NCBI GenBank assembly: GCA_044340205.1
Contig: JBIIUB010000002.1
Location: 7,125 to 71,124, forward strand
Length of the DNA stretch: 64,000 bases
Origin: Terrimicrobiaceae bacterium
GTDB lineage: Bacteria; Verrucomicrobiota; Verrucomicrobiia; Chthoniobacterales; Terrimicrobiaceae
Direction: 5' to 3'
Shown: piece after piece, positions 46,194 to 62,759 of the stretch
How the letters are laid out: every line of letters begins with the position of its first letter
How positions within the stretch are numbered: position 1 is the first letter of the stretch
Notes under the pieces: generated by a model
Database searches by the model: none
What the model saw: only the letters and a program-made list of their open reading frames with translations
Told to the model about the DNA's origin: nothing
Translations under genes and position numbers: made by a program

Positions 46194-46200
46194 ACCCGGC

Positions 46201-48806: not shown

Positions 48807-48973
48807 TGACTGAAATTTATGCGCTCCTTCAACTGATGCAAGGGAATCTCAGTCATCCCCTCCTCCGTGTCCTCTGTGCGCTCTGTGGTTAATCCATTAA
48901 TCGCCGATTCACTCACACCGCGTATCGGTTTGCAGGCTCGCGCTCTTCCGCATAGAATGCGCCTTTTTCCAAA

Positions 48974-51505
48974 ATGAGCACGCAGCGCAAGCAGTATCCG
49001 TTCACTGAATTCGAACCCCGCTGGCAACAGCATTGGCTGGAAGCCGGAGCCTTCCGCGCCGCCAATCCGGGGGACGCCGATTTCGATGCCTCCAAGCCGA
49101 AATACTACATTCTCGACATGTTCCCCTACCCCAGCGGAGACGGCCTGCATGTCGGCCATGTTGAGGGATACACCGCCACGGACATCCTTGCCCGCTTCCA
49201 CCGCATGCAAGGCTTCAATGTGCTACACCCCATGGGTTGGGACGCCTTCGGACTCCCCGCCGAGCAATACGCCATCAAAACCGGCCAGCACCCGCGCGTC
49301 ACCACAGCCCGCAATATCGACAACTTCCGCCGCCAACTTCAGGCCGTCGGTTTCAGCTACGATTGGGATCGCGAAGTCAGCACCACCGACCCGGGCTACT
49401 TCCGGTGGACGCAGTGGATTTTCCTCCAACTCTACAACGCCTGGTTCAACCCCACGACGCGCAAGGCCGAGCCCATCGCCACCTACACCGGCAACGATCC
49501 CGACTCAGTGCGCCTTGCCTATGTCGCCGAAATGCCGGTGAACTGGTGCCCGCAACTCGGCACCGTGCTGGCGAACGAAGAGGTCGTCGACGGCAAAAGC
49601 GAAGTGGGAGGATTCCCCGTCGAGCGCCGTCCGCTCCGCCAATGGATGCTGCGCATCACCGCCTTCGCCGAGCGCCTCCTGGAGGGCCTCGATGGACTCG
49701 ATTGGCCCGAGGGCATCAAGCTCCTCCAGCGAAACTGGATCGGCCGCAGCGAGGGAGCCTTGGTCAAATTTCAAATCGCAAATGCTCCATGCGCAGTGGA
49801 GGTCTTCACGACACGCCCCGACACACTCTTCGGAGCGACCTACATGATCCTCGCGCCCGAGCATCCGCTCGTCGCTGCCATCACCACTCCTGACCAACTC
49901 GAAGCCGTAGAAAAATATAAAACCTCCGTCGCATCCAAGAGCGACCTCGACCGCACCGAACTCAACAAGGAAAAAAGCGGCGTCTTCACCGGTGCCTTCG
50001 CCATCAACCCCGTCAACGGCGACAAAATCCCCGTCTGGATCGCCGACTATGTGCTCATGGGCTACGGCACGGGCGCCATCATGGCCGTCCCCGCCCACGA
50101 CGAGCGCGACTTTGAGTTCGCCAACAAATTCCAACTCCCCATCCGCGAAGTAGTGAAAAAAGAGGGAGCCTCCTCCTGCTTTGCCGGCGAGGGAGTGGCC
50201 GTGAACTCGGGTTTTCTCGACGGCTTGCCGACCGCCGAGGCCAAGCAAAAGATCACTACTTGGCTAGAGGAGAAGTCTCTCGGACGCGGCACGGTGAACT
50301 ACAAACTCCGCGACTGGCTTTTCTCCCGCCAGCGCTACTGGGGCGAGCCATTCCCGATCTTATGGGAAGGCGGACGCCATCGCGCACTGACTCAGGACGA
50401 ACTCCCAGTCGTCCAGCCCGACATGGAGGATTTCAAACCCACTGGCACGCCGGAGCCACCACTCAGCAAGGCTCTTGAGTGGTTGAAATACTCGGACTCC
50501 GCGCAGCGCGAGACCAACACCATGCCTCAATGGGCAGGCTCGTGCTGGTATTACCTGCGTTTCTGCGATGCCAAAAACTCCGAGCGCTTCATCGGCAAAG
50601 AAGCCGACGAATACTGGATGGCGCGCAACGCCAAACCCGGCGGCGTGGACCTCTATGTCGGCGGCACCGAGCACGCCGTGCTGCATCTCCTCTACGCCCG
50701 CTTCTGGCACAAGCTCCTGCATGACCTCGGCCATGTGACCACGCCCGAACCGTTCCAGCGTTTGGTCAACCAAGGCATGATCCTCGGCCCGGACGGCCAA
50801 AAAATGTCCAAGAGCAGGGGCAATGTCATCACTCCCGACAGCGTAATCTCCGAATACGGCGCCGATTCGCTGCGACTGTATGAAATGTTCATGGGCCCGC
50901 TTGAGCAAATGAAGCCCTGGAGCATGAAAGGCGTCGAAGGCGTCTACCGCTTCCTCGCCCGCGTATGGCGCTTGGCCATGGAAGAAAATCAGGAAGGCGA
51001 ATGGATCCTCTCAAGCGACCTCGCCGAGATTCCGCTCAACGCGCAGCAACTTCGCATCGCCCACGCGACCATCAAAAAGGTTACCTCCGACATCCGCCTC
51101 CTCGCCTTCAACACAGCGATCTCGCAAATGATGGTTTTCACCAACGAATTCGTGAACGCCAAGCCACGCCCGCTGGAGGCGCTTCGCATCCTGCTACCGC
51201 TCCTGAGCCCCTTCGCCCCCCACCTCGCCGAGGAACTCTGGAGCCGCCTCGGTTTTGCCGGACTCGCCTCCAAGCAACCTTGGCCCGTGCATGACGAATC
51301 CCTGCTCGTAGAAAACGAAGTCGAACTCGCCGTGCAAGTGAACGGCAAAGTCCGCGAGCGCCTCGTCATTTCAAAAGTAGCCACCAAAGAGGAAATCGAA
51401 AAAGCCGCCCTCGCCAGCCCAAAAATCCAAGAAGCCACAGCAGGACAAACCATCGTCAAAGTCGTCGTGGTCCCCGGGAAACTCGTGAACATCGTCGCCA
51501 AATAA
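48974..51505 (+). CDS. leuS: Leucine--tRNA ligase
   Basis: 843 aa. It has the HIGH-type motif ([12 protein letters not shown]) and the KMSKS motif (QKMSKSRGN). Confidence 0.95.
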
Positions 51506-51626
51506 AAAGCAGCAACCCAGCCCCGGCGGCCGCCCACAAATTTCAGACAGCCTGACCTCTGCCCAATCGCGTCTGCATCGCAGGGAAACTGGATGATCTT
51601 TTTTGACACGAGAAAACCTCGCCATT

Positions 51627-52006
51627 CGAAGATCGATGAGGATTCAAATCCCTGTTGATTCTTCATCCGCGAGTAGCGCGCTGTCGCGCGGTTGCTGTAG
51701 CAGCGTCTCTATGAGCGCCGGAGGGCCCTCCAATTCGGCAGTCATAGACAGCCGCTACAAACCCGCGCGGCAACGCGCTTCGTAATCCAAGGTAGGGATG
51801 CCGCGCCGTCGGCGTCCCAAGATTCAGCCGCAAAGCGGCGTTTCTTCTGGATGCAATGGAGGCTTCGCCACGCAAATGGGTCAGCGACGGCGCGCCGACC
51901 CTACCCTGCATGCACGAGCGCGCTGTCGCGCGGTTGCTGTGGTGGCTTCCGATTCGGCAGTCATAGACAACAGCTACACGAACCGATCAGGATTTTCCCC
52001 TTGTCA
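51627..52006 (+). repeat. Degenerate dispersed/tandem repeat array upstream of tRNA-Glu
   Basis: The 24-nt block agcgcgctgtcgcgcggttgctgt lies at 51675-51698 and 51917-51940. The 18-nt block attcggcagtcatagaca lies at 51733-51750 and 51952-51969. Related tail segments lie at 51627-51658 and 51979-52006. An imperfect long-range inverted repeat sits between the copies: 51791-51811 pairs with 51885-51905. Confidence 0.7.
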
Positions 52007-52043
52007 AAGCGGCTCCGGCGCATAGTATTTACCTCCCCAACAC

Positions 52044-52118
52044 GGCGCCTTCGTCTAGCGGTTAGGACACAGCCCTCTCACGGCTGGTGCACGGGTTCGA
52101 TTCCCGTAGGCGTCGCCA
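52044..52118 (+). tRNA. tRNA-Glu (anticodon CUC), CCA encoded
   Basis: A cloverleaf can be built by hand. The acceptor stem is GGCGCCT/AGGCGTC (one G-U pair). The D-arm is TCGTCTAGCGGTTAGGAC. The anticodon stem CAGCC/GGCTG closes the loop CTCTCAC. The T-arm is CACGGGTTCGATTCCCGTA, followed by a G discriminator and CCA. Confidence 0.9.
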
Positions 52119-52144
52119 TTCTTTCTGAGACTTAGGCGTTCAGG

Positions 52145-52930
52145 TCACTCGGAAGTTTTATAAGTCGCGCGACTTTGAGGGGCGTTAGTTTGGGGAGCGG
52201 CTTTCGTCGATACGGGAGGCTCGACAGGTGATTTCGAGCGAGAACTGCCAAAGGTCGATTCCAACTCGCGAAGAAGGTTTTTTTCGACGCCGCCGGGAGC
52301 CGCAAATCCGCTGCCGGTGAGGACGACAGCCTCGCCGGGATCGACGGATTGCGTTTGACCAGTGATGCTCGTAGCCAGCACACGGCCAGTGGTGACACCG
52401 ATGGCAGCGCGCTCTTTCTGCGAAAGCACAAAAAGCCTCGTGCCCCGGATTCCAGCAATGCCGAGCGAAGTCGAAATTTGAAAATGCGAGTCGGGTTTGA
52501 GGCGAGGAATGTCCAGCATGATCAAACCAGACTTAAGCTCCAGTCGCGTGGATGAACGGCAGGGCTCGCCGCCCACCCTGTTGGCATCGACTTTTTCAAA
52601 ATCAATCGGCGCAGCGCTTGTGAAGCTGGCCACACGCAGTTCCGTAAGCGGCTTCATATCAAGCAGTGAGCCATTGGCAAAAAGGAGGGACAAAAAAGAA
52701 TTTCTCGGCGTCTTCAAGACCGCCCCTTGTGGAATCACATCATTCACCCTCACAACCGGCTTGGAGCCATCCGGCATAATGATCTCCGCCGGAATCCCCC
52801 TAGCCGCATGAATCCGAACCTCTCCAACCTCCGGCAAGGCTGCGGCAAGAGGCATCACCAGCGACAAAAATCCGAGGACGGCGACAAAACAAGCGAGGGG
52901 AAAAACTTTGGTTTTCATAGGTGCATTCAT
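52145..52930 (-). CDS. FecR-domain-like secreted protein with a Pro/Ser-rich tail
   Basis: 261 aa with a signal peptide. VIPQGAVLKTPRNSFLSLLFANGSLLDMKPLTELRV resembles the FecR (PF04773) core. No ECF sigma factor gene is adjacent. Confidence 0.55.
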   Translation of the reverse strand: MNAPMKTKVFPLACFVAVLGFLSLVMPLAAALPEVGEVRIHAARGIPAEIIMPDGSKPVVRVNDVIPQGAVLKTPRNSFLSLLFANGSLLDMKPLTELRVASFTSAAPIDFEKVDANRVGGEPCRSSTRLELKSGLIMLDIPRLKPDSHFQISTSLGIAGIRGTRLFVLSQKERAAIGVTTGRVLATSITGQTQSVDPGEAVVLTGSGFAAPGGVEKNLLRELESTFGSSRSKSPVEPPVSTKAAPQTNAPQSRATYKTSE

Positions 52931-52970
52931 CCATTCCTGTAAATTCTGTTAATTTTGTCTAAAAACACAT

Positions 52971-55900
52971 CTACGAACGCATCAAACCTCCAAGGGTTGC
53001 CATTTCCATAAGGGCTTTTTCGAAACCTTCGACGAAGCGCTTTTCATCCATAAGAACGGACTGGCGCATGCGTTCGCGCATTCCGGCGCGGAGTTCCTGA
53101 AGACGGTCGATTTGAGCCGCCAGCGCGACGGCTTTTTCGATGTAGGCTTCACGCGTATCGGTGATGAATTCCTGCAAGCCGACGGCGCTCAGCAGACTCA
53201 CGCCGACGCGGGAGACATGGGTTTTACCCGCTCGCGTGACGACTGGACATCCCATCCACATCGCCTCGCAGCTCGTCGTGGTGCCGTGATACGGGAAGCT
53301 GTCGAGGGCGATATCCACCGAGTGGTAGTGGTTCAAGTGATCAGCGATTTTTTTGGTGTGGCCAAAGAAATCGAGCCGCCCCTCTTCGATACCGCGCTCG
53401 GTGAAATAGGATTTTAGTTCCTTGCGCACGCCGTCGTCCGTAAGCGTGCGGGCTTTCAAGCGTAGATGCGAACCCGGGACGCGGAGCAGGATTTCCGCCC
53501 ATGTCTCGAAGAGAGCAGGGTTCAGCTTTGCCATGTTGTTGAAGCAGCCGAAGGTCACAAAGCCGTTTTTCAAAGCAGGCAACGGCTCGACCTCTGGCGC
53601 GGAGGCATCTGGCTCAAAGCACCAGGCGCATTCAGGCACTCGGATGAGTTTTTCTGTGTGCAGATGCTCGGTTGTTCCCTGCGGATCGGCAAAAGCATCG
53701 GTGATGCGGAAATCAATCGTCGGCAGGCCTGTTGTGCCTGGGTATCCTAAATAACTCACCTGCAGCGGCGCGGGTTTAAGGGCAAAAACACCAAGGCGGT
53801 TGTAGGCCGTGTGACCTGCCAACTCGAAGAGAATGTCCACTCGATCTTCATGAATGAGCTTCGCCAGTGCGCGGTCATCGTAGCTTGAGGTCTCGCGCCA
53901 CAAGTCCACCTGCTTCGCAAAGCGGGCTGAGAATTCGTCCGATTTCCGCTGGTCACCATAGGCCACAAACTCGAAACGCTCGCGGTCATAGCCTCGGAAG
54001 ATCGGCTCGATGAAATGCGCCACGGGATGATGGCACAGGTCAGCCGACAGGAATCCCACGCGAATTTTCGCCCCTGCCTCGCGCGGCTTGAACTTGAATG
54101 CTGGCGGAAATTTTTTGGCCGTGGAGATGCCCCATTTTTTGTGCTCCTCGAAGACCAGTTTCGAATCCATGTCGGGGATATACATGTGGCAGAGCAAATA
54201 GTTGCTCGGCGCGTCGCGGTCGTCGGGATTCAGCTCCATCGACTTCCGGTATTGAGGCAAAGCATCCATGCCACGGGCGCGATCCTTGAGAAGGTTGCCA
54301 ATGTTGTTTCGTGCGGTTGGTAGTTTGGGATTTTTCTCCACCGCCTGCTCAAAGCACTCCAGGGCCTCGGAGTTCAGACCGAGCTCCAGAGCGGCCGCGC
54401 CGAGGTTGTTGAGATAGGAAACATTCGAGGGATCCATCTTCACCGCCGCATGGAAGGCCATGATCGCATCGCCTCCTTTGCGGAGATCCTTGTAAATCAC
54501 GCCGCGATTACACTGGAGCGCCGCCGTGTTGTAGCCCATCGACAGGGCTTTTTCATAATGCACAAGCGCTTCTTGGAAGCGTTTGCTCATGTGCAGCGCG
54601 AGGCCGTATTCGTAGTGATAGTCGCTCAGCTGCCCCGGCAGCGAAATCGCTTTTGCCAAGGCAGGAATCGCCTCGGAGTAACGCTTGAGGCCATTCAGCA
54701 GCTTACCTTGGCGGAACCACACAAAACCCACATTCGGATTCATGCGCGAGGCCTTGCCATAAGCCGCCAGCGCGTCCACATACCGAGCATTCTGCTCGAG
54801 CAAAATCGCCAGATTCGTCTGAAACTCCACCGAGTCAGGCTTAAGCGCGCAAGCCTTCCGAATCTGCGAAATCGCATCCTTGCCTCGCCCGAATTTTTGC
54901 AGCGCCGTGGCATAGTGCGAAAACCCCTCCGCATAATCTTTCCGCAACCTCAAAGCATCCTGAAAAGCCTCGAGCGAAGCCGACTTATCGTCCTTCTCCG
55001 CCAATATCCGCCCGAGCAGCACAAGCCCCTCCGGCGAATCCGGCGCCATCTCCAAAGCGCGCCGCACCTGCTGCTCCGCAGGCTCCAATTCCTTCTTCCG
55101 CAGAAAAACCTCGGCCAACTCGCGCACAAACTCCGCATTCTGCGAGTTCAAATCGCAAGCCACAGACGCAAACTCACCCGCCGTCTCCAAATCCCCCTGC
55201 AATGCCGCCATCTTACCCATCAAATGCCAGGCCCCTGCACACCGCTCATCCTTGCCGAGAATCTCGCGACAGATGTCCTCGGCATCAGAAAGTCGGCCCT
55301 CGTTAAACGCCGTCTGCGCGTCTTGAAGTGTTGCGTTACTTGACATCAAACGAGACTCATCCGAACTGGTGTGCTGTAGTTGGTTTGTTCCATTTTTTAA
55401 CGAAATCAAATCCTCTGCAATAGATTCAATACGAACCACAGAGTTTGTGACGGAAAACTGCATCGCCCGTTTTTGCGAGTTGTTTTGGAGCTTATCGCGC
55501 AGTTCTTTATTAGTGGCCAATGCCACAAGGGTTTGAGCTAGAGCAACAGCATTTCCCTTCTCAAAGACAAGGCCGTCGATTCCATGCCTGATAACCTCTT
55601 GGGTTCCACCAGTTCCAGATGTAATTACAATCAAACCGGAGGCCATGGCTTCAACCTGACTAATTCCAAATGCCTCGGGAACCTGTGTTGGAAACACAAG
55701 AACATTGCAGCGGGCAAACAAAGCGGCAAGGCCTTGGCGATCTAAAAAACCATTGAAGCGAACTTTGGCCCCCATGCCATTATTTTGAGCGAATTCCATC
55801 AACGTTCGGATGTAGCCTTCATCCGTGGAGTCACCGGCAAAATCAGCCTCAAATTCAATACCCGATTGTTGCAATATGTTTAAGGCACCCATTAACACAT

Positions 55901-58457
55901 GGCCCCCCTTGTAAGGCATGACAAGACCAGCGAATGCGATTCTCAGTCGACGAATATCGGGAAGGAACTGCTTGAAGAAGCGGTCCACGCGTGCCCCTGG
56001 ATAGACAGTGCTGAGCTTGGAAACTTTGTAGCCTTGTTCCAGAAGGTTTTTCCCCAGCCAATCGCTTGCCGGAGCGATCCTGTAAAGTGGCGATTCAATA
56101 CTGTCTTGCGGGTGATAACCTGGTGTTTGGTTCCCAAGCGAATGAAGAACTGGAATTTTTGTTGATACTAAAGCCTTAAGAATATCAATCCCAATAAAAT
56201 CGAAGTTTCCCAACAAGACGAAATCCGGCTTGAATGAGGTAACGGCAGCAAGAACTTTTTCCTTGTTCGCTTCAGCAGCGCGACGGAGAAATGTTAAGTC
56301 CCCGAGTTGCTGAGTTTTTCCGTTTTTCCATTCTCCCTGAAGCACCAGACTTCTTTCCACAAGCGGCTCCAAATCCGGTTCTCCCGCATCCGCTGCTTTC
56401 TGAAGATAGTGAGCATCGCCTGTGAGAATTTTTAAGCGATGTCCGCGCTTGCAAAGGCCATTGGAAAATTCCCAGATTTTTCGCCCATAACCTCCCAGCT
56501 CCTGAGGAGGAAAGAGGTTTGTAACAACCAAAATAGAATAAGCAGCTGTTGGCAAAGGAGGAGCGCCTCCCGAAACAGCTTCCTTATATTGTGTAAAATG
56601 ATTGGCGGCGAGAAATTTGCATTCTAAATCTTCCCGCAATGTATTGATTTCCGGAGGCAGAGCTTGAATTCGATGCGCCTCATGTAGCAAAATAGCGGCA
56701 TCCTCCTCGGCCCCCGCTTGAACGCAGAGGTCAGCAAGTTGGAAAAGGGCCGAGAGACAGTTGCGATTCAAAAACAAAGCCCGTAGCAAGGTATCGCGCC
56801 GCAATTCTTGTAACCCAAGCGCATCGCATGCATCAGCCACTTCCAGCGCCTCGGTATCGTTTATGCACTTGTCCAAACATTCCTCAAGCAATGGTCTCGC
56901 TGCCTCACAGTCCAAATTCCGCACATTTTGGACTATTTCAGAAAACGAGACTGCGCAATCTAGGTTATCCTCCTTTTTCTGGATGAGACTTATGTTTGTT
57001 GGAATATACTGCGAAAATTCTCGGCCTTCAAAATCACACGTTATCATTGAACTGGGGTTCAGCCATATCCCTGGTGTTTTGCCAAGCAGATTTTCATCTT
57101 TTGGATCACAGATTCTTAGTGATAATGAATGACCCCTAGACATTTCTTCATTTACCGAGCATGATTGAGAGTTCCCGATCCAAACTATACACTCTCCTTG
57201 CTCTGGCGACGGAATTGATAAATCAACTGGCGCTGACTCTAAAACTGTAACACGCGGAAGAATTTTTACATAGTCTTTGATATACTCTGCAACTTTGGTT
57301 TCCCCTTGTATGAAAATGAATAGGCGTTTGCATAGTCGGTGCAACTCTTGAACTATTTCGTAGCCATAGCATGCTGTAACTGCATTAGGATTAAGGTTTA
57401 TTTTTCGTTGCGGATGTAGGGTTTCCGACAAATTGGAGGCTAATTGATTTGTGTTTTCACAATAGTCTTGAAGACTCTTGTTAAGTGTCGGCGTTATGCG
57501 ATGGAGAAGACTATTCCCAGCTCGGGCAATCGCACGCACTTCATCTGGTTTATTTAAAACAAATTCAAGGACATCCACCGCCTCCTCTTCGTCTCGGTAA
57601 ATCAAACAATTCTCACCATTTCTGAGGTGCGGGCCTAGTTCAGATTTTTCAGAGAGTGGATCGGTTATTAAGCATGTTTCACAGAGCAAAGGCGCGTAGG
57701 ACTGAACCGATGGAAAACCATTGAGGCTGCATGTAAATGAGGCAATATCTTTAGACAGACTCTCAAGCCATTTTATCGGTTGCAGTCTAGGCTTAAAATC
57801 TAACGCCACAGATCCCCTCGAGCTACTCATTATTTTCTTTAGAATATAGCTCCTCTCGGGATGAAACAGATCCGAAATCGCTCCATAATAGCAGGCATGC
57901 AACCCTCGCTTCCCGGCAGGATTCATCACGAGTCCACTAGTGTCATTAGGCGTATAACAAAGAGGGTATGCATTTAAGCCAAGGCAATCTGCAAAAATTT
58001 TTCGGTGCGGAGAGTGTGAAACAAATACCATGCTTGCCCCTACCTCGCTTATGTAAGCAATAGCAGAGTTGACTGGGTTTGACATGTGGTGAGTATCAGC
58101 AACAAAGCATTGGATAGGCATTGATGCAGCATTCAACTCCTTCCTATTGGGCAATCTGTCTCCTTCGACCACGATCGAAACAACTGGATTATGGCTGATA
58201 CACTTCTTAGCCAGAAATTCTCGCAATGCTCCCCATTTTATTAAAGCCGAAGGAATGGCATATAGATCCATCGTTCCATTCTTAAAATGTCTAAAATTTT
58301 TGATCGTAGGTCCGTAGAATACACAGCGTCTATATGCCAAGCCGTGAGCAAACCACCACTTATGAATTCCTACAAAAATCGTATTTAGCTCTTCCTCTGG
58401 AAGCCAAAAGTAAAAAACTATGGCATCAAAGGATAACTTGGCATTGATAGTACTCAT
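52971..58457 (-). CDS. 1828-aa multidomain glycosyltransferase: CgeB-like GT module + helical linker + GT4 + TPR array + GT41 (SPINDLY/O-GlcNAc-transferase-like) domain
   Basis: aa 1-340 are Glyco_trans_1_2-like (...LITDPLSEKSELGPHLRNGENCLIYRDEEEAVDVLEFVLNKPDEVRAIARAG). aa ~640-1010 are GT4 (YSILVVTNLFPPQELGGYGRKIWEF...EAFGISQVEAMASGLIVITSGTGGTQEVI). aa ~1040-1440 hold about 10 TPR units. aa ~1440-1828 are GT41-like (IRVGFLSADLCHHPVAHFIEPIF...VSYLGYPGTTGLPTIDFRITD...CFNNMAKLNP...FPYHGTTTSCEAMWMGCPVVT). Confidence 0.85.
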   Translation of the reverse strand: MSTINAKLSFDAIVFYFWLPEEELNTIFVGIHKWWFAHGLAYRRCVFYGPTIKNFRHFKNGTMDLYAIPSALIKWGALREFLAKKCISHNPVVSIVVEGDRLPNRKELNAASMPIQCFVADTHHMSNPVNSAIAYISEVGASMVFVSHSPHRKIFADCLGLNAYPLCYTPNDTSGLVMNPAGKRGLHACYYGAISDLFHPERSYILKKIMSSSRGSVALDFKPRLQPIKWLESLSKDIASFTCSLNGFPSVQSYAPLLCETCLITDPLSEKSELGPHLRNGENCLIYRDEEEAVDVLEFVLNKPDEVRAIARAGNSLLHRITPTLNKSLQDYCENTNQLASNLSETLHPQRKINLNPNAVTACYGYEIVQELHRLCKRLFIFIQGETKVAEYIKDYVKILPRVTVLESAPVDLSIPSPEQGECIVWIGNSQSCSVNEEMSRGHSLSLRICDPKDENLLGKTPGIWLNPSSMITCDFEGREFSQYIPTNISLIQKKEDNLDCAVSFSEIVQNVRNLDCEAARPLLEECLDKCINDTEALEVADACDALGLQELRRDTLLRALFLNRNCLSALFQLADLCVQAGAEEDAAILLHEAHRIQALPPEINTLREDLECKFLAANHFTQYKEAVSGGAPPLPTAAYSILVVTNLFPPQELGGYGRKIWEFSNGLCKRGHRLKILTGDAHYLQKAADAGEPDLEPLVERSLVLQGEWKNGKTQQLGDLTFLRRAAEANKEKVLAAVTSFKPDFVLLGNFDFIGIDILKALVSTKIPVLHSLGNQTPGYHPQDSIESPLYRIAPASDWLGKNLLEQGYKVSKLSTVYPGARVDRFFKQFLPDIRRLRIAFAGLVMPYKGGHVLMGALNILQQSGIEFEADFAGDSTDEGYIRTLMEFAQNNGMGAKVRFNGFLDRQGLAALFARCNVLVFPTQVPEAFGISQVEAMASGLIVITSGTGGTQEVIRHGIDGLVFEKGNAVALAQTLVALATNKELRDKLQNNSQKRAMQFSVTNSVVRIESIAEDLISLKNGTNQLQHTSSDESRLMSSNATLQDAQTAFNEGRLSDAEDICREILGKDERCAGAWHLMGKMAALQGDLETAGEFASVACDLNSQNAEFVRELAEVFLRKKELEPAEQQVRRALEMAPDSPEGLVLLGRILAEKDDKSASLEAFQDALRLRKDYAEGFSHYATALQKFGRGKDAISQIRKACALKPDSVEFQTNLAILLEQNARYVDALAAYGKASRMNPNVGFVWFRQGKLLNGLKRYSEAIPALAKAISLPGQLSDYHYEYGLALHMSKRFQEALVHYEKALSMGYNTAALQCNRGVIYKDLRKGGDAIMAFHAAVKMDPSNVSYLNNLGAAALELGLNSEALECFEQAVEKNPKLPTARNNIGNLLKDRARGMDALPQYRKSMELNPDDRDAPSNYLLCHMYIPDMDSKLVFEEHKKWGISTAKKFPPAFKFKPREAGAKIRVGFLSADLCHHPVAHFIEPIFRGYDRERFEFVAYGDQRKSDEFSARFAKQVDLWRETSSYDDRALAKLIHEDRVDILFELAGHTAYNRLGVFALKPAPLQVSYLGYPGTTGLPTIDFRITDAFADPQGTTEHLHTEKLIRVPECAWCFEPDASAPEVEPLPALKNGFVTFGCFNNMAKLNPALFETWAEILLRVPGSHLRLKARTLTDDGVRKELKSYFTERGIEEGRLDFFGHTKKIADHLNHYHSVDIALDSFPYHGTTTSCEAMWMGCPVVTRAGKTHVSRVGVSLLSAVGLQEFITDTREAYIEKAVALAAQIDRLQELRAGMRERMRQSVLMDEKRFVEGFEKALMEMATLGGLMRS

Positions 58458-58481: not shown

Positions 58482-59591
58482 TTATATGCTGTTGATTATG
58501 CTACAGATATCAGCAACAATTTCTGCAGTTATGCTCTGACCTGTCGGTAACACGATCACCCTCGCAGCGACACGCTCGGTTTCCGCTAAAAGCAGACCGG
58601 CATTAGGTTGCAGGGACCGATACGGTTCCATCTTGTGGCAACCTGGCCAGAAGTATTTGCGGGCGATGATGTTATTTGCATGAAGCGCTTCCACAATTTG
58701 GTCGCGGTTGCGCCGGCAGACCTCGGGATCAACTTCAATAACTATATACTGGTAGTTGTTGAGCTCAGCCGGATCGTAATCGATCACCGAAATGCCAGGC
58801 AACTCAGCTAAACCGGCTTTGTAGGCTTCATAATTTCGGCGGTTCACCGAAATGATTTCATCCATAGCCTCAAAATTTGTCAGGCCCATGGCTGCGTGTA
58901 TTTCACTCATCTTTCCATTCACGCCCAGATAAACCACCTTGTCAAAATCCACGAAACCGAAATTCCGCATCAAACGCATTTTTTCAGCCAAGTCGTCGTT
59001 GTTTGTTACTACTGCACCACCTTCGAAACAGTTCAAGAACTTCGTCGCATGAAAGCTGAAAACCTCGCACTCGCCAAAAGTCCCGAGCATGCGCCCTCCC
59101 TTTGTGCAGCCAAACCCGTGCGAGGCGTCATACATAACCTTGAGATTTCGCTTGGCCGCGATTTCTTCGATCACCTCGGTTTCGCAACCTCTTCCCCAAA
59201 CATGCACGCCGACGATTCCGGTCGTTCTTGGCGTGATCAATCGCTCAATCTTGGTCGGATCGATATTGTGCGTCGCGGGATTCATGTCGCAAAAAACCGG
59301 CGTGATTTCCTGCCATTGCAAGGCATGGGCCGTGGCCACGAATGTGTAGCTTGGCACGATCACCTCGCCCTTCAAATCCAACGCCCGACATGCGATCTCA
59401 AGCGCCACCGTCGCATTGCACATCGCCACCACATTCTTGACTCCTAAGAAGCCGGCAACCTTTTCTTCAAATTCCTTCAGCAACGGCCCGTCATTCGAGA
59501 GCCAGCGCCGGTCCAAAATCCCGTTCACGCGCTCCAGAAAACGCTCCCTGTCACCGATATTCGGCCGACCGACATAAAGTTTGTTATTCAT
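58482..59591 (-). CDS. DegT/DnrJ/EryC1/StrS-family PLP-dependent sugar aminotransferase
   Basis: 369 aa. The motifs are EFEEKVAGFLGVKNVVAMCNATVALEIA, PSYTFVATAHAL and FSFHATKFLNCFEGGAVV (Lys for PLP). Confidence 0.9.
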   Translation of the reverse strand: MNNKLYVGRPNIGDRERFLERVNGILDRRWLSNDGPLLKEFEEKVAGFLGVKNVVAMCNATVALEIACRALDLKGEVIVPSYTFVATAHALQWQEITPVFCDMNPATHNIDPTKIERLITPRTTGIVGVHVWGRGCETEVIEEIAAKRNLKVMYDASHGFGCTKGGRMLGTFGECEVFSFHATKFLNCFEGGAVVTNNDDLAEKMRLMRNFGFVDFDKVVYLGVNGKMSEIHAAMGLTNFEAMDEIISVNRRNYEAYKAGLAELPGISVIDYDPAELNNYQYIVIEVDPEVCRRNRDQIVEALHANNIIARKYFWPGCHKMEPYRSLQPNAGLLLAETERVAARVIVLPTGQSITAEIVADICSIINSI

Positions 59592-59630: not shown

Positions 59631-60374
59631 TCACTTACCTTTCTCACAAAGCAGAAAAATGCTCGCGCAAAGGTCTGGATAAACCTGCCCGAGCGCATAA
59701 CACCCATCCAAGTATTCCTGCGAAATCACATCCGTATTGAGAATCTTATCCCATTGGAAATTTGCGAGCGCCTTGAAAAAAATCCCCGAGCGCTGCACCA
59801 CCCGCAATCCCGCAGCGACGGCATCCCGCTCCAGCGTGTCGAGCGAATAGGTTCGATGGTGGCCATGCTTAGCTTCACCGGGAGTGATTGCGGAATTGTG
59901 AGAAATCAACCCCATCTTGACCGCAATTTGCCGCGAGGGTGCATTCGCATTCGGGCAAACCAAAAACAACCGCCCCTTGTCGGATAACCACTCGTCATTG
60001 ATCCGGCGCAGCACGCCCACCGCATCATCCACATGCTCCAAGACATGGGTGAGGAAAATGTTATCGAACTTATCATTAAGCTGAAGGGTTTCGAACATTC
60101 CCTCGATAAACTGAACCCTTTCAGGCAGGCGTGTTTTAGCATCCTCGATGGCAATTTTCGACGCTTCGACGCATGTCATGGTATCGAAAATTCCCAATAA
60201 CCTTTTGGTGAAATCTCCCTTGAAACTTCCCAACTCCAACGCATTGCCCGAGACGAGCAGCGGCTTGAACGCTTCGATCATATAGTGGTGCATCACATCG
60301 AAGTCGAAGTTATATGCATATTTGCGCCCGACGCCGTCATCGAACTCCTTGTTGAAATCGCGGTTCATGTTCAT
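59631..60374 (-). CDS. Class I SAM-dependent methyltransferase
   Basis: 247 aa. It has ALELGSFKGDFTKRL (motif I-like) and FDNIFLTHVLEHVDD. Confidence 0.8.
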   Translation of the reverse strand: MNMNRDFNKEFDDGVGRKYAYNFDFDVMHHYMIEAFKPLLVSGNALELGSFKGDFTKRLLGIFDTMTCVEASKIAIEDAKTRLPERVQFIEGMFETLQLNDKFDNIFLTHVLEHVDDAVGVLRRINDEWLSDKGRLFLVCPNANAPSRQIAVKMGLISHNSAITPGEAKHGHHRTYSLDTLERDAVAAGLRVVQRSGIFFKALANFQWDKILNTDVISQEYLDGCYALGQVYPDLCASIFLLCEKGK

Positions 60375-60826
60375 GTGTTTTTTAATTGTAAACTCATCTT
60401 TAAGAAACCACTTTTTCCACCCCCAATCGGCTGGAACCCGTGTTTTCGGTAAAATCCGCAGGCATGCTGATCGTTCTGTCCAACTTCCAGCACAAGGCCG
60501 TTCAGTCCCTTCGCCAAAGCGGCATCAAAGCAATCTTGCATGAGACGAGAAGCTATGCCTTTGCCTTCAAAATCGCCGCATATGCTCACGCTCGATATAA
60601 ATCCCTCGAATGTATTAGAATTACTTAGGTAGGCTGCAACAAGTCCGATGAGGCGGTCCGATTCCCAGGCTTCGAACCGGTCAGCTAATGTTGAAAGTTT
60701 TTGCGCGTAATCGGGAAGTAAAACCCTTGAGGAAATAGGTGGCGCAAACCGCATATCGCATTCGCGAAGGTGATTTTCAATCGATGCCGCATCAGCGGTG
60801 TCGTTTGTAATACGCAGGGAATTCAT
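60371..60826 (-). CDS. GNAT-family N-acetyltransferase
   Basis: 151 aa. It has GKGIASRLMQDCFDAALAKGLNGLVLEV...ACGFYRKHGF. ATGA overlaps join it to both neighbours. Confidence 0.8.
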   Translation of the reverse strand: MNSLRITNDTADAASIENHLRECDMRFAPPISSRVLLPDYAQKLSTLADRFEAWESDRLIGLVAAYLSNSNTFEGFISSVSICGDFEGKGIASRLMQDCFDAALAKGLNGLVLEVGQNDQHACGFYRKHGFQPIGGGKSGFLKMSLQLKNT

Positions 60827-61785
60827 TCCTCTAAAACCGCAGCACCGAAACCATGTCGACCAAATTCATTCCCATTATACAACAAATAAGTTTGACCGCC
60901 GGATTGACAAATTCCTGGATAACACATCATGTCGGAATCCCATGACTTACTGTCATTCTTGAGTGGTATAGCATGATCATCTCGTTCCCAATGAATCAAA
61001 TCTTTGGAAACCGCATGTCCAATCTGATATCCGCGAGATGGATTGGTGCGAAAATCGTGCGAGTGCCGGAAGCAAAAAAACATGTGATAAAGACCATTGA
61101 TTTTTGTCACGCATGGCAATGCTTGGCATTCAAGTTCACCAATGGCATCCGGGATGATGGCAATGCCTTCGGCAGTTTTTTCCCATTCGACTCCATCGGA
61201 AGAAATTGCATGGCCGATCTTGTAGGTTCTTTCCGGCACGCCACCATCTTCATAGGTCTGCCAGCCTTTTCCAAAAATATACCACATGTGGAACGCCCCC
61301 CCATCTTGAAGAACGAAACCATCCCCCACTAAGCAAGGCTCTCGCAAAGAACTTGTCAGAACTGGACCAATACCAACCCGCTTGAAGGACAACCCTCCAT
61401 CACTACTAATCGCCAAGCCAATACCTGTTTCTACCGAGACTGAAACGCGGCGACTCCATCCACATGTGTAGCCCAACAATTTTTTTCCGGACTTCACCAC
61501 ATTCATTGGGAAAATTCCGTGCTCGTCAAAACAGCCGAGGCCTCCTCTTTCAATCACTGGGCGCTCAGAAACACAGAGAACTTCTGAAAAATCGGGCGCA
61601 AAATCAACAAAAGCAACATCGCTTATAAATTTGCTATTCTTCGGATCGACAGCCCGCGTCGAAAAATAGACGCGCACAAAATTATCGAAAACAACCGGTT
61701 GCGGCGATTGGGCAAAGCCGATGCTGCCCGCAGGCAAGCTATGCTTCGAAAGGTCGAAAACCAAGCCGAGTTTGCGCCACCTCAT
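60823..61785 (-). CDS. Uncharacterised beta-propeller-like protein (GH32/43/130-like fold suspected), paralogue 2
   Basis: 320 aa. It has repeated W/F-rich blade-like segments (GIGLAISSDGGLSFKR, HAISSDGVEWEK, GHAVSKDLIHWER). It is clearly homologous to the adjacent 61782..62759 product. Confidence 0.55.
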   Translation of the reverse strand: MRWRKLGLVFDLSKHSLPAGSIGFAQSPQPVVFDNFVRVYFSTRAVDPKNSKFISDVAFVDFAPDFSEVLCVSERPVIERGGLGCFDEHGIFPMNVVKSGKKLLGYTCGWSRRVSVSVETGIGLAISSDGGLSFKRVGIGPVLTSSLREPCLVGDGFVLQDGGAFHMWYIFGKGWQTYEDGGVPERTYKIGHAISSDGVEWEKTAEGIAIIPDAIGELECQALPCVTKINGLYHMFFCFRHSHDFRTNPSRGYQIGHAVSKDLIHWERDDHAIPLKNDSKSWDSDMMCYPGICQSGGQTYLLYNGNEFGRHGFGAAVLEE

Positions 61786-62759
61786 TCCAATCTGCCTTTC
61801 AACTCAGCCACGCCAAATCCCCAGCGACCTACCGAGTCTCCGAGATAAAACATATAGATTTTACCATTTATTTCAGACAAATGCGGATAACTGACCATTT
61901 CGGCATCCCAGCCTGTATCGGAGGGTAGCAAACCAGCTTTTGCATCATCGCGAGTCCAATTCATCAAGTCCGTGCTGTGAGCGTAGCCGATTCGATAACC
62001 ACGCGAGGCGTTGCGGTAGTCGCGACCTTGCCGATAGCAAAAAAACATATGGTATTTTCCGGAAGAGAAAAAAACATCCGGACTGGCTTGAGCTTCCTCA
62101 TCGCCCAAGACATCAGGAATAAGATCCCCGCCTACTTTCTTCCAGTCCAAACCATTCTCGGAAACCGCAACGCGAATTTTATAAACCGGTTCGGGACGCC
62201 CATTTTCAAGCACCCACTTGCTGCCGGAAATGTAAAAGAGGTAAAATCGGTCTTCAAACTTGCGAATTTTAGGCCCGCTTAAAACAAATGGCTCGTGCAA
62301 GGAGTAAGATAGAATTGGGCCTCTAGCATATTTTTCGAAGGTCGCCCCATCGTCTCTGCTAATGGCCAGACCGATCGCGACATTGAATGGCACAGACTCA
62401 CAACGAGTCCATCCCCCATAATAAAGGAGAACTTCATTTCCGTGCCGGATGGGCGAGACGGGATAAATACCAAACTCATCAAAATCCCCATACCCGCCAT
62501 GCTGCAAAACCGGGGATTCCGAAACGCGCAGAATTTTACGAATGTCATTCTTATCGAAGTCCACCCAAGCCGAATTGCTAACATAGCTTCCATTCGAATC
62601 CGGAGCAGGGCGACATGAGAAGAAAACACGAATGAAGTCATCAAAATGGAGGGTCGCTGGTCCTTGGGCAAACTCCTTCATCCAAGGTCTGTCTGGATAC
62701 GCCATTGGATCAAAAATTTTCCCGAGTTTTTGCCATTCAAACATCATATTCTCTTGCAA
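61782..62759 (-). CDS. Uncharacterised beta-propeller-like protein, paralogue 1
   Basis: 325 aa. It has AIGLAISRDDGATFEK, VAVSENGLDWKK and YAHSTDLMNWTRD. It aligns along its whole length with the 60823..61785 product. Confidence 0.55.
   Translation of the reverse strand: MQENMMFEWQKLGKIFDPMAYPDRPWMKEFAQGPATLHFDDFIRVFFSCRPAPDSNGSYVSNSAWVDFDKNDIRKILRVSESPVLQHGGYGDFDEFGIYPVSPIRHGNEVLLYYGGWTRCESVPFNVAIGLAISRDDGATFEKYARGPILSYSLHEPFVLSGPKIRKFEDRFYLFYISGSKWVLENGRPEPVYKIRVAVSENGLDWKKVGGDLIPDVLGDEEAQASPDVFFSSGKYHMFFCYRQGRDYRNASRGYRIGYAHSTDLMNWTRDDAKAGLLPSDTGWDAEMVSYPHLSEINGKIYMFYLGDSVGRWGFGVAELKGRLE

What the first reader, a model, noticed from the sequence alone, without database searches (positions are those of the whole stretch)
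52971..58457. 1828-aa triple-glycosyltransferase fusion with a sharp GC break at the GT4/TPR junction
One ORF combines a CgeB-like GT module, a GT4 domain, about 10 TPR units and a GT41 O-GlcNAc-transferase-like domain. The DNA encoding the TPR+GT41 part (52971 to about 55340) has backbone-like composition; I counted 35 of 60 G+C at 55201-55260. About 150 bp further on, the GT4 and N-terminal modules are AT-rich, 20 of 60 at 55381-55440, like the rest of the island. The switch falls at roughly codon 1038, which is the linker before the first TPR (…SSDESRLMSSNATLQDAQTAFNEGR…). This pattern suggests a recent in-frame fusion of a resident GT41-TPR gene with horizontally acquired transferase modules. 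The result would be an enzyme able to build a short glycan processively on a protein target recognised by the TPR array.
Basis: partly seen in the sequence, partly recalled or inferred. Interest (0 to 1): 0.7.

Follow-up and report, generated by a model that had tools for sequence, protein, structure and literature searches.

The report
Giant glycosyltransferase with swappable front half
This 1828-residue gene joins three sugar-adding enzymes in one protein; its conserved rear 43% (a protein-recognising transferase) is shared with near-identical genomes, while its AT-rich front 57% belongs to a strain-variable sugar-gene cassette, so the cassette's edge lies inside the gene.

Summary
ORF 52971-58457 (-) is intact and encodes a divergent GT-B module, a helical linker, GT4, about 11 TPRs and a SPINDLY/OGT-like GT41. 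Third-position GC jumps from 0.42 to 0.69 at codon 1045 (support interval 1040-1060), far beyond chance.

TPR-GT41 is resident. Two Terrimicrobiaceae (Verrucomicrobiota) genomes are collinear with the window at 92-96% nucleotide identity, from the downstream backbone up to window 55319-55331. There homology stops. Upstream, they carry different in-frame N-terminal transferase modules and different sugar-synthesis genes. Stand-alone TPR-GT41 orthologues of about 790 aa start 9-28 residues before that point.

The fusion is not private to this genome and not demonstrably recent. The same architecture occurs in independent assemblies at 60-89% protein identity. The front half is itself mosaic, and module trees conflict with 100% bootstrap support.

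Flagellin genes adjoin the locus in seven related assemblies, and next to distant homologues in two Clostridium genomes, but none is visible in the window.

Best reading: this is the constant anchor plus exchangeable extender modules of a flagellin glycosylation island. The GC break marks the edge of a replaceable cassette. It is a new variant of a known kind. Enzymology and target are inferred.

The parts
52971..58457 (-). Whole 1828-aa ORF: multi-domain glycosyltransferase
   Evidence: Searches show a continuous ORF. An identical partial copy, aa 561-1828 at 100% identity and spanning the junction, occurs in a JGI metagenome protein.
56958..58457 (-). N module (aa 1-500): divergent GT-B glycosyltransferase, CgeB-like (Pfam Glyco_trans_1_2)
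   Evidence: Pfam. AlphaFold2 pLDDT 90.3. Foldseek hits to GT-B retaining transferases, probability 1.0, TM 0.41-0.57, about 10% identity. Nearly invariant polar residues across 52 homologues: D121, H123, H124, H199, R202, N246, D266, E367, R374. Stand-alone homologues of 498-520 aa at 40-41% identity. Type 'A' of two N-module types that are only about 21% identical.
56568..56945 (-). Helical-repeat (TPR-like) linker, aa 505-630
   Evidence: AlphaFold2 model of aa 1-1040 shows paired helices with block pLDDT about 76-89. This segment has its own history: 86-90% identity to L007 but 56-59% to L010/L012.
55398..56537 (-). GT4 domain (aa 641-1020) with EX7E motif E928...E936
   Evidence: Pfam PF00534/PF13692. 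PDB sequence hits Alr3699/HepE, MshA, glycogen synthase. Confident model. EX7E present and invariant among homologues. Swapped relative to L012: 52-54% identity, while flanking modules are 87-92%.
55323..55397 (-). Inter-module linker (aa 1021-1045) ending at the composition and homology break
   Evidence: GC3 change point at codon 1045. Homology to L017, L018, L019 and L020 begins at window 55319-55331. All architectures become alignable about 5 residues before QDAQTAFNEGRLSDAEDICR. The model is disordered here, pLDDT below 50.
54168..55322 (-). About 11 TPRs (aa 1046-1430) with an OGT/SPY-type asparagine ladder in the C-terminal repeats
   Evidence: Pfam TPR families. SPINDLY residues N334, N367, N368, N402 and N436 correspond to N1317, N1350, N1351, N1385 and N1419. 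R408 corresponds to K1391 and N300 to E1283. This was mapped by hand from the alignment and the residue list in PMC9715652. These residues are invariant in the five full-length homologues.
52971..54167 (-). GT41 catalytic domain (aa 1431-1828), SPINDLY/OGT-like
   Evidence: Pfam PF13844, 175.7 bits. Best PDB hit is Arabidopsis SPINDLY 7y4i/8dtf, E about 1e-130, then human OGT at 8e-79. SPY residues D491, H495, N661, K665, H728, Y744 and T747-749 correspond to D1473, H1477, N1640, K1644, H1707, Y1723 and T1726-1728. S496 is replaced by P1478.
58482..59591 (-). DegT/DnrJ/EryC1-type sugar aminotransferase, immediately upstream and co-directional
   Evidence: Pfam, 358 bits. A DegT gene directly precedes the type-A N module in all eight loci examined.
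59631..60826 (-). SAM methyltransferase (59631-60374) and GNAT acetyltransferase (60371-60826)
   Evidence: Pfam. The same genes in the same order occur in L006, L007 and L010.
60823..62759 (-). Two tandem beta-propeller proteins with weak GH130/GH32N-like matches (60823-61785 and 61782-62759)
   Evidence: Pfam, weak hits. Conserved in L006, L007 and L010. Role unknown.
62772..63470 (-). WbqC-family protein, first gene of the cassette seen in the window
   Evidence: Pfam PF08889, 216 bits. Homology to L007 continues to window 63977. In L007 the next genes are a second TPR-GT41 paralogue and flagellin.
42378..55331 (.). Backbone block shared with conspecific-level genomes L017 and L019. It includes the TPR-GT41 part, a FecR-like gene (52145-52930), LeuRS, a UvrD helicase and an S11 peptidase.
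   Evidence: blastn gives 92-96% identity and a sliding profile. dS is 0.13-0.26 in backbone genes, 0.43 in codons 1046-1595, and 0.044 in codons 1596-1828 against L017.

Best explanation
What it is: the gene encodes a soluble, multi-catalytic protein glycosyltransferase of a strain-variable glycosylation island in a freshwater Terrimicrobiaceae bacterium (Verrucomicrobiota).

The constant part: the C-terminal 43% (TPRs plus a SPINDLY/OGT-like GT41) is a conserved resident gene. By analogy with OGT and SPINDLY, it threads an extended stretch of the acceptor protein through its TPR asparagine ladder and attaches the first sugar to Ser/Thr. The acceptor is most likely flagellin.

The variable part: the N-terminal 57% (a divergent GT-B module, a helical linker and GT4) consists of extender transferases. 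They belong to the neighbouring cassette of sugar-nucleotide genes (DegT aminotransferase, methyltransferase, GNAT, WbqC). They would add the cassette-specific sugars to the bound acceptor.

How it evolves: in the population, the whole cassette, including the front of this ORF, is exchanged by homologous recombination, with the TPR-GT41 part as the right-hand homology arm. Individual modules are also reshuffled at their linkers. The GC3 jump at codon 1045 is therefore the edge of the replaceable cassette lying inside an ORF. It is not the scar of a recent fusion.

Shown here: the ORF, the domains, the break, the end of homology, alternative N-termini on the same chassis, stand-alone forms, module incongruence, conserved active-site residues, and flagellin linkage in relatives.

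Inferred: the acceptor in this genome, which domain primes and which extend, the sugar donors, and processivity.
For: 1. The GC3 break at codon 1045 has a lnLR of 65, against a permutation maximum of 7.4.
2. L017 and L019 match the window at 92-96% from the backbone up to 55319/55331 and not beyond.
3. On the same chassis (72-97% aa identity) other genomes carry different fronts, while several have stand-alone proteins of 788-808 aa. The fronts are:
   - a CgeB-like module only (L017, 1248 aa);
   - unknown+GT4+GT41 (L019, 2199 aa);
   - GT2x2+GT41 (L026, 2038 aa);
   - a 2335-aa form (L025).
4. All forms become homologous about 5 residues before the first TPR helix.
5. Sugar genes differ in step with the front. 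The window has WbqC/propellers/GNAT/MT/DegT. L017 has an HMGL-like aldolase, an epimerase, a TPP enzyme and IS66. L019 has NeuB, a HisH/HisF-like pair and methyltransferases.
6. Module trees conflict with 100% bootstrap support. For example, L014 pairs with L010 in TPR-GT41 (95-96%) and with L012 in GT4 (87%), and carries the other N type (22%). Window against L012 is 87/59/52/90/92% across the five modules.
7. An independent fusion in the opposite order (GT41, then N-like, then GT4; P0009) and adjacent unfused gene pairs (L004) argue that the modules work together.
8. Flagellin genes lie within a few kb in L001, L007/L008, L016 (five copies), L026, L027 (four copies) and L032. They also lie next to the 36-39% homologues in two Clostridium genomes.
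9. Catalytic and peptide-binding residues of SPINDLY are conserved. The GT4 EX7E motif is intact. No membrane-like segment was found.
10. dS next to the junction is 0.43, about twice that of backbone genes (0.13-0.26). This is expected beside a locus where divergent alleles are exchanged or maintained.
Against: - No flagellin gene is present in the 64-kb window or within 10 kb of the gene in L017/L019. The cassette is cut by the window end, so linkage in this lineage rests on homology to L007 up to 63977.
- No enzymology was done. The role split (GT41 primes, the others extend) is argued only from which part is constant.
- L006 has the same sugar genes as the window but a GT4 only 56% identical. 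Module type and sugar-gene content therefore do not co-vary strictly.
- The type-A N module stays at GC3 of about 0.38-0.44 across homologues down to 60% identity. Simple 'recent import followed by amelioration' does not explain this.
- All comparison sequences are metagenome assemblies, where strain mixing at a shared segment is possible.
Confidence: 0.66

Rival explanations
1. One reading: a recent, de novo in-frame fusion arose in this genome between its resident TPR-GT41 gene and freshly acquired foreign transferase genes.
For: The GC3 break is sharp and falls exactly at the N-terminus of the stand-alone orthologues. Stand-alone TPR-GT41 looks ancestral, with 24 clusters of 787-808 aa at 51-90% identity.
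Against: The same fusion, with a homologous linker, occurs in L007, L010, L012 and L001 and their replicate assemblies, at 60-89% identity. The closest relatives of each island part are still at dS of 0.27 or more. The break sits at codon 1045-1078 in L007, L010 and L012 too.
Confidence: 0.06
2. The architecture and mosaic evolution are as described, but the acceptor is not flagellin. It could be the 3893-aa filamentous-haemagglutinin-like protein encoded in the window, pilins, or many cytoplasmic proteins as with OGT/SPINDLY.
For: No flagellin gene is in the window or within 10 kb in L017/L019. HMW1C-type GT41 enzymes glycosylate FHA-like adhesins (PMC3012730, listed). A large FHA-family ORF lies at 15932-27613. 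A cyanobacterial Ogt homologue modifies a pilin (PMC9306852).
Against: Flagellin genes adjoin the orthologous locus in seven related assemblies, and adjoin distant homologues in two Clostridium genomes. The FHA-like gene is 25 kb away on the other strand. The match to HMW1C-type enzymes is weak (E about 1e-12, against 1e-130 for SPINDLY).
Confidence: 0.15
3. The three catalytic domains do not act in sequence on one protein-bound glycan. The N and GT4 modules might build a nucleotide- or lipid-linked intermediate, or modify other sites. In that case fusion serves only co-expression or scaffolding.
For: There is no biochemical evidence for order or processivity. GT4 type and sugar-gene content do not co-vary strictly (L006). 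N-like modules occur fused to many other partners.
Against: Fusions arose independently in both orders, and adjacent gene pairs exist. All modules lack membrane segments. Flagellin glycosylation is known to be cytoplasmic and carried out by soluble enzymes (PMC7591256).
Confidence: 0.1
4. The break is an artefact or has a non-historical cause. Either the metagenome assembler joined two strains at the shared TPR-GT41 segment, or two genes were merged by a sequencing error, or codon-usage selection created the contrast without different ancestry.
For: The data are MAGs and metagenomes. Co-existing strains share the TPR-GT41 segment. There is a 99% patch against L017 at about 53000-53670 within a 91% region.
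Against: The ORF is continuous across the junction in at least eight assemblies from different samples, including a 100%-identical partial copy. Strains differ by 7-10% in the shared segment, enough to separate reads. The contrast is in GC3 and coincides to within a few codons with the end of homology.
Confidence: 0.03

Closest known systems
SPINDLY / O-GlcNAc transferase (CAZy GT41; PDB 7y4i, 8dtf, 3pe3)
   Same: TPR superhelix followed by a two-lobed GT-B catalytic domain. Best PDB sequence match is SPINDLY, E about 1e-130 over aa 1268-1819. The catalytic Lys, the His, the TTT phosphate loop, the Tyr at the donor-selecting position, and most of the Asn ladder are conserved.
   Different: Bacterial. 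It sits in a sugar-biosynthesis island next to flagellin genes in relatives. It carries 1045 extra N-terminal residues with two further glycosyltransferase domains. SPY S496 is Pro here. From my own recollection human OGT also has His-Pro at this position; this was not checked. Donor sugar unknown.
FlmG flagellin O-glycosyltransferase of Caulobacter/Brevundimonas (PMC7591256; bioRxiv 10.1101/2022.03.25.485807)
   Same: [quoted passage not shown] It is demonstrably modular, and chimeras re-target donor or acceptor.
   Different: FlmG is 596 aa with one catalytic domain that transfers pseudaminic or legionaminic acid. Here the TPR+GT pair is the constant part, and additional catalytic modules are what vary. 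Sequence relationship to FlmG was not tested.
Flagellin glycosylation islands, e.g. in Enterobacteriaceae (PMC4875605) and Geobacillus (PMC5109656)
   Same: Strain-variable clusters of sugar-synthesis and transferase genes. GC is on average 5.2% below the genome. Transposases are present. Evidence of piecemeal horizontal exchange. GT41 'SPINDLY family' transferases are frequent and are often fused to a further (methyltransferase) domain.
   Different: There the island boundaries are described as lying between genes. Here the boundary lies inside an ORF, and the variable part includes catalytic domains of the same polypeptide. The phylum is different (Verrucomicrobiota).
Cassette replacement at O-antigen and capsule loci with mosaic flanking genes (e.g. 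gnd next to the E. coli O-antigen cluster; own knowledge, not checked here)
   Same: A low-GC, hypervariable glycan cassette exchanged by recombination in conserved flanks. Divergence is raised in the flank: here dS is 0.43 beside the junction against 0.13-0.26 further out.
   Different: The 'flank' here is the 3' 43% of the same gene, so each exchange creates a new chimeric enzyme.
Multi-domain flagellin glycosyltransferase of Paenibacillus alvei (Janesch et al. 2016, Glycobiology 26:74; cited as ref. 8 in PMC5109656; the paper could not be read here)
   Same: From memory only: a large flagellin-locus protein combining TPRs with more than one transferase domain, linked to an oligosaccharide O-glycan.
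   Different: Not verified. Different phylum and probably different GT families. No population-level module exchange has been reported, to my knowledge.

Membership tests
GT41 (OGT/SPINDLY-type protein glycosyltransferase) | Match to the family profile above the curated threshold | tested here: met
   PF13844 scores 175.7 bits against a cut-off of 25. SPINDLY E about 1e-130, human OGT 8e-79.
GT41 (OGT/SPINDLY-type protein glycosyltransferase) | TPR array directly N-terminal to the catalytic domain, with an asparagine ladder for peptide binding | tested here: met
   TPRs at aa 1046-1430. Five of six ladder Asn are conserved (N1317, N1350, N1351, N1385, N1419), R408 corresponds to K1391, and N300 corresponds to E1283.
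GT41 (OGT/SPINDLY-type protein glycosyltransferase) | Essential nucleotide-binding Lys (SPY K665) and active-site His (SPY H495) | tested here: met
   K1644 and H1477, both invariant in five full-length homologues.
SPINDLY-type O-fucosyltransferase (subgroup of GT41) | Tyr at the donor-selecting position (SPY Y744; Cys917 in human OGT) and Ser after the active-site His (SPY S496) | tested here: inconclusive
   Y1723 is SPY-like, but P1478 replaces S496. The paper notes that XcOGT and TtOGT also have Tyr at the first position, so the donor cannot be read from sequence.
GT41 (OGT/SPINDLY-type protein glycosyltransferase) | Transfers a sugar from a nucleotide sugar to Ser/Thr (or Asn) of a protein | not testable with these tools
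   Needs enzyme assays.
GT4 (retaining GT-B, Glycos_transf_1) | Profile match, GT-B fold and EX7E motif | tested here: met
   PF00534 scores 99.1 bits against 26.4. Confident two-lobe model for aa 641-1020. E928-x7-E936 is present and invariant.
CgeB-like glycosyltransferases (Pfam Glyco_trans_1_2, PF13524) | Profile match above threshold in the N module | tested here: met
   58.1 bits against a cut-off of 25, best stretch aa 246-315, though two stretches contribute to the score. The related N module of L017 scores 81.8 bits.
CgeB-like glycosyltransferases (Pfam Glyco_trans_1_2, PF13524) | GT-B fold with a conserved putative active site | tested here: met
   pLDDT 90.3. Foldseek probability 1.0 to GT-B enzymes, but only about 10% identity and TM 0.41-0.57. 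Conserved D121, H123, H124, H199, R202, N246, D266. Activity untested.
Flagellin glycosylation island | Located next to flagellin genes | tested here: inconclusive
   Not seen in the window or in L017/L019. Seen in L001, L007/8, L016, L026, L027 and L032. The window ends 530 bp beyond the WbqC gene (63470), the outermost island gene it shows.
Flagellin glycosylation island | Sugar-nucleotide biosynthesis or modification genes plus transferases, strain-variable, GC below the genome | tested here: met
   for content. for replacement between genomes that are 92-96% identical. GC is 0.45-0.47 against 0.58-0.60.
FlmG family | Sequence homology to FlmG; transfer of pseudaminic or legionaminic acid | not tested
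   Only the architecture (TPR plus GT-B) was compared. The window cassette has no NeuB-type synthase, whereas the L019 cassette does.

The most novel reading that the evidence does not exclude
This lineage may run a natural 'plug-and-play' assembly line for protein glycosylation. A constant acceptor-binding and priming unit (TPR-GT41) would be fused in-frame to interchangeable extender glycosyltransferase modules. These modules are shuffled at linker hot spots among co-existing strains, much as modules are shuffled in polyketide and non-ribosomal peptide synthetases. Recombination would then generate new surface glycans and the matching multi-step enzyme in a single event. The enzyme would act processively on the flagellin held in its TPR lumen.
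Probability: 0.3. Interest if true: 0.78.

Novelty: new variant of a known kind. Interest (0 to 1): 0.6.

Why it matters
Flagellin glycosylation islands and TPR-bearing flagellin transferases are known. How glycan diversity and transferase specificity evolve together is not well understood.

Here, genomes that are 92-96% identical over about 12 kb of shared flank carry different catalytic front ends on one conserved acceptor-binding enzyme. The exchange point is mapped to a few codons.

- This gives a natural set of chimeras. At least seven architectures share one chassis, counting the stand-alone form, and stand-alone and permuted controls also exist. They could be used to test directly which domain primes, which domains extend, and whether linker-level swapping yields active enzymes.
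- That is useful for glyco-engineering of proteins.
- It bears on phage- or grazer-driven surface variation in abundant freshwater Verrucomicrobiota.
- It is a caution for annotation and for HGT detection. A compositional break inside an ORF can mark an island boundary rather than an assembly error or a new fusion.

Tried and rejected
1. Amino-acid composition as the cause of the break. Rejected: GC2 is flat at about 0.4 while GC3 jumps.
2. A fusion unique to this genome. Rejected by the full-length homologues.
3. Finding a crossover point for the cassette import inside TPR-GT41. Sliding identity against L007, L017 and L019 shows a switch to 99% with L017 only after about codon 1595. L007 is not closer than L017 in codons 1046-1595, so no donor could be named.
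4. Strict co-variation of GT4 type with sugar-gene content. Rejected: L006 has the window's sugar genes but a 56%-identical GT4. Only the DegT-N(A) adjacency holds, in 8 of 8 loci.
5. The first AlphaFold2 run on aa 1-1040 with 9 sequences left aa 146-504 unmodelled. It was solved with a 52-sequence alignment of the N module.
6. An exact-match scan of metagenome contigs with a 41-mer from window 63880-63920, meant to extend the window towards a possible flagellin gene, found nothing.
7. PDB sequence search of aa 1-640 gave no hit. Only the fold search was informative.
8. The ATG at codon 1038 as a relic or internal start of the stand-alone gene. It is not conserved (ATT in L007), so it is left as a remark.
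9. The P. alvei paper could not be retrieved.
Full report
**1. The observation**

The minus-strand ORF 52971-58457 is open for 1828 codons from an ATG. Pfam finds four kinds of domain:
- a Glyco_trans_1_2 (CgeB-like) match, best stretch aa 246-315;
- a GT4 domain (Glycos_transf_1, aa 836-997; weak Glyco_trans_4_4, aa 655-793);
- a long run of TPR families over about aa 1046-1425;
- Glyco_transf_41 at 175.7 bits.

The compositional change is real and sharp.
- 300-bp windows read 0.55-0.61 GC between 53050 and 55300, and 0.40-0.52 from 55300 to 58450.
- The change is carried by third codon positions. GC3 goes from about 0.40-0.47 to 0.65-0.77, while GC2 stays near 0.4. Amino-acid composition is therefore not the cause.
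- A binomial change-point analysis on GC3 puts the break at codon 1045, with a 2-lnL support interval of 1040-1060. GC3 is 0.418 before and 0.685 after.
- The log-likelihood ratio is 65.1, against at most 7.4 in 200 permutations.
- Backbone genes downstream have GC3 of 0.73-0.76. The upstream genes are heterogeneous, from 0.45 to 0.63.

**2. What the modules are**

The C-terminal 788 aa match Arabidopsis SPINDLY best (7y4i/8dtf, E about 1e-130). Next come human OGT (8e-79), a bacterial TPR-GT41 (5djs), XcOGT, and weakly the HMW1C-type N-glycosyltransferases.

I mapped the residues that the SPINDLY structure paper identifies (PMC9715652) onto the alignment.
- Conserved catalytic residues: the essential Lys (K665 to K1644), the active-site His (H495 to H1477), N661 to N1640, H728 to H1707, the donor-proximal Tyr (Y744 to Y1723) and the TTT loop (T1726-1728).
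- Conserved TPR ladder residues: N1317, N1350, N1351, N1385 and N1419.
- Exceptions: S496 is Pro here and N300 is Glu.
- These positions are invariant in the five full-length homologues.

The GT4 domain has its EX7E motif (E928, E936) and models confidently.

The first 640 aa have no sequence match in the PDB. With a 52-sequence alignment, however, aa 1-500 fold at pLDDT 90.3 and pTM 0.91. The model matches GT-B retaining glycosyltransferases with Foldseek probability 1.0, TM 0.41-0.57 and about 10% identity. A set of polar residues is nearly invariant across these homologues: D121, H123, H124, H199, R202, N246, D266, E367 and R374.

Residues 505-630 form a helical-repeat linker. No membrane-like segment was found.

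The description 'three glycosyltransferases plus about 11 TPRs' is correct.

**3. Surroundings**

Upstream and co-directional lie six genes:
- a DegT-type aminotransferase;
- a SAM methyltransferase;
- a GNAT acetyltransferase;
- two beta-propeller proteins with weak GH130/GH32-like matches;
- a WbqC-family protein.

Downstream lie a FecR-like gene, LeuRS, a UvrD helicase and an S11 peptidase.

**4. Relatives: the fusion is neither unique nor demonstrably recent**

A search of 5.8 billion proteins returns full-length homologues of 1828-1839 aa at 89, 83, 79 and 60% identity. It also returns 1021-1045-aa proteins that cover only the N+GT4 part, and a 1328-aa form.

Their contigs show the same operon logic, and in two cases a flagellin gene.

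Unfused states exist.
- In L004 the 1021-aa N+GT4 gene is followed, after a 536-bp gap, by a separate TPR-GT41 gene. That gene aligns to window aa 1042-1770.
- In L006 an N+GT4+TPR protein is followed by a separate 794-aa TPR-GT41.
- A distant protein (P0009, 1811 aa) carries the modules in the opposite order: GT41 first, then N-like and GT4. This is an independent fusion.
- An exhaustive HMMER search with aa 1-640 finds only 242 relatives at E of 0.001 or better in 1.84 billion representatives. They include stand-alone N modules of 498-520 aa at 40-41% identity.

**5. The decisive comparison**

A scan of one genome per species identifies the organism group as Verrucomicrobiota, family Terrimicrobiaceae. 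Most hits are freshwater MAGs.

Two of these contigs, L017 and L019, are collinear with the window from about 42400/43600 up to 55319 and 55331 respectively, at 92-96% nucleotide identity. They do not align at all beyond that point. Those coordinates correspond to codons 1043-1047, which is the GC3 change point.

In L017 the same reading frame continues upstream into a different, shorter front: a CgeB-like module, 1248 aa in total. In L019 it continues into an unknown+GT4+GT41 front, 2199 aa in total.

Other genomes put further fronts on the same chassis (72-97% aa identity): GT2x2+GT41 (L026, 2038 aa), a 2335-aa form (L025) and forms of at least 2486 aa (L018). L021, L022, L023, L027 and L030 have stand-alone proteins of 788-808 aa. 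Their start codons lie 9-28 residues before the point that aligns with window residue 1045.

All variants become alignable about five residues before the first TPR helix...ATL|QDAQTAFNEGRLSDAEDICR. In fused forms GC3 is lower upstream of the junction. Examples are L017 at 0.45/0.68, L019 at 0.44/0.67 and L026 at 0.52/0.73.

A second protein search with the TPR-GT41 part alone finds 24 clusters of 787-808 aa at 51-90% identity. It also finds a class of about 1243-1281 aa at 74-97%. The stand-alone form therefore looks ancestral. The search also returns a 100%-identical partial copy of the window protein that spans the junction.

The sugar genes change together with the front.
- L017 has an HMGL/DmpG-type aldolase, an epimerase, a TPP enzyme, IS66 and a methyltransferase.
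- L019 has NeuB (nonulosonic-acid synthase), a glutamine amidotransferase with a HisF-like partner, and methyltransferases.

**6. The front half is itself a mosaic**

Identity of the window protein to L012 across the five modules (N / linker / GT4 / TPR / GT41) is 87/59/52/90/92%. To L010 it is 80/58/84/88/88%. To L007 it is 80/90/89/96/93%.

Neighbour-joining trees of the five modules in nine full-length proteins conflict, with 100% bootstrap support.
- There are two N types only about 21% identical.
- L014 groups with L010 in TPR-GT41 (95-96%) and with L012 in GT4 (87%), and carries the other N type.

The position of the GC3 break also differs between relatives. It is at codon 1045-1078 in L007, L010 and L012, but at codon 517-649 in L001, L004, L005 and L006. 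It is absent in L015, L016, L031 and P0009.

Synonymous divergence between the window and L007 ranges from 0.27 to 1.5 among the island genes. No sampled sequence is closer than dS of about 0.27 in any island part. Against L017, dS is 0.43 in codons 1046-1595, 0.044 in codons 1596-1828, and 0.13-0.26 in backbone genes. Divergence is therefore raised right beside the junction, and there is one patch of near-identity.

**7. Likely acceptor**

Flagellin genes lie within a few kb of the orthologous gene in L001, L007/L008, L016 (five copies), L026, L027 (four copies) and L032. They also lie beside the 36-39%-identical homologues in two Clostridium genomes.

A second 658-aa TPR-GT41 paralogue (about 34% identical) sits between flagellin and the island in several loci.

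The window contains no flagellin gene. Its homology to L007 runs to 63977, about 15 bp short of where that paralogue begins in L007. The linkage is therefore probable but unseen.

**8. Interpretation**

The TPR-GT41 unit is a resident, conserved protein glycosyltransferase with intact catalytic and peptide-binding residues. The N and GT4 modules belong to a replaceable glycan cassette.

The most economical mechanism for the pattern is cassette replacement by homologous recombination, with TPR-GT41 as one homology arm, plus reshuffling at the inter-module linkers. The GC3 step then marks the cassette's edge.

That the constant unit primes the acceptor and the variable units extend the glycan is an inference from constancy versus variability, and from analogy to OGT/SPINDLY and to FlmG. 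In FlmG, TPRs bind flagellin and a GT-B domain transfers the sugar (PMC7591256; bioRxiv 10.1101/2022.03.25.485807).

The general phenomenon is already described for Enterobacteriaceae (PMC4875605): low-GC, transposase-bearing, strain-variable flagellin glycosylation islands with GT41 enzymes that are sometimes fused to a further domain. What I could not find described is:
- an island boundary inside the transferase ORF;
- a conserved chassis with at least seven alternative architectures, counting the stand-alone form;
- domain-level incongruence within the variable part.

**9. Unexplained points and caveats**

- The type-A N module keeps GC3 of about 0.38-0.44 across homologues down to 60% identity, beside domains at 0.64-0.83. 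Simple amelioration after one transfer does not fit. Repeated exchange from an AT-rich pool, or selection, would be needed.
- L006 shows that GT4 type and sugar-gene set are not strictly coupled.
- All data are metagenome assemblies. The 99% patch against L017 could be gene conversion or a local strain switch in assembly.
- Donors, acceptor and processivity are untested.

**10. Verdict**

This is a new variant of a known kind, with interest 0.6.

Noticed in passing
window 15932-27613 (+): A 3893-aa ORF with a filamentous-haemagglutinin-family C-terminal domain (DUF3739, aa 3716-3826) and a weak CBM_5_12 hit. GC drops to 0.51-0.57 across 17000-28000, against about 0.60 before. Adhesins of this kind are substrates of HMW1C-type GT41 enzymes, so it is a conceivable alternative acceptor.
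   Followed up: partly
window 28000-31000: A second low-GC patch (0.46-0.50) with a Sel1-repeat protein (29702-30541, minus strand) and ORFs without Pfam matches (27755-29023, 29162-29686, 30587-31045).
   Followed up: no
window ~53000-53670 versus L017: A patch of about 700 bp (codons 1596-1828) is 99% identical to L017 (dS 0.044). It is flanked by sequence at 89-95% identity (dS 0.43 on one side, 0.14-0.26 on the other). This is either gene conversion or a strain switch in a metagenome assembly.
   Followed up: partly
window 48234-48860; L019 16347-16992: About 630 bp between UvrD and LeuRS have no counterpart in L017. By eye they encode two small minus-strand ORFs that look like a toxin-antitoxin pair (not scanned). 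L019 has about 645 extra bases, real sequence and not Ns, at the position of window ~50170 inside LeuRS.
   Followed up: no
window 60823-62759 (-): Two tandem paralogous beta-propeller genes with only weak GH130/GH32N/GH43-like matches sit inside a sugar-nucleotide modification operon. They are conserved in L006, L007 and L010. Their role in glycan synthesis is unclear.
   Followed up: no
window 58482-63470 versus L007: The cassette is mosaic gene by gene. dS to L007 is 0.27-0.33 for one propeller gene (60823-61785), the GNAT and the methyltransferase, 0.50 for the other propeller gene (61782-62759), and 0.99 for WbqC and 1.5 for DegT. GC3 also alternates, from 0.45 to 0.63.
   Followed up: partly
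L013 635-6070 (P0009): A 1811-aa protein from another metagenome has the same module set in permuted order: GT41, then N-like GT-B, then GT4. Its GC3 is uniform at 0.65, and it is followed by an FkbM-type methyltransferase. This is an independent fusion of the same partners.
   Followed up: partly
L029 10001-13616; L026 7481-13597: L029 has a GT41-like piece upstream in a different frame from its TPR-GT41 ORF. The 146 residues before its junction resemble the pre-junction sequence of L026. It looks like a split or frameshifted version of the L026 architecture.
   Followed up: no
window 55344-55346 (codon 1038): An in-frame ATG preceded by GGATGAG lies 7 codons before the homology start. It could be a relic or an internal start for a separate TPR-GT41 product. 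It is ATT in L007, so it is not conserved.
   Followed up: partly
L007 1689-3665; also L014, L016, L021, L027, L032: A second TPR-GT41 paralogue of 658 aa, about 34% identical to the chassis and 68-73% conserved among genomes, lies between the flagellin genes and the cassette. These loci therefore encode two GT41 enzymes. By homology it should start just beyond the window end.
   Followed up: partly
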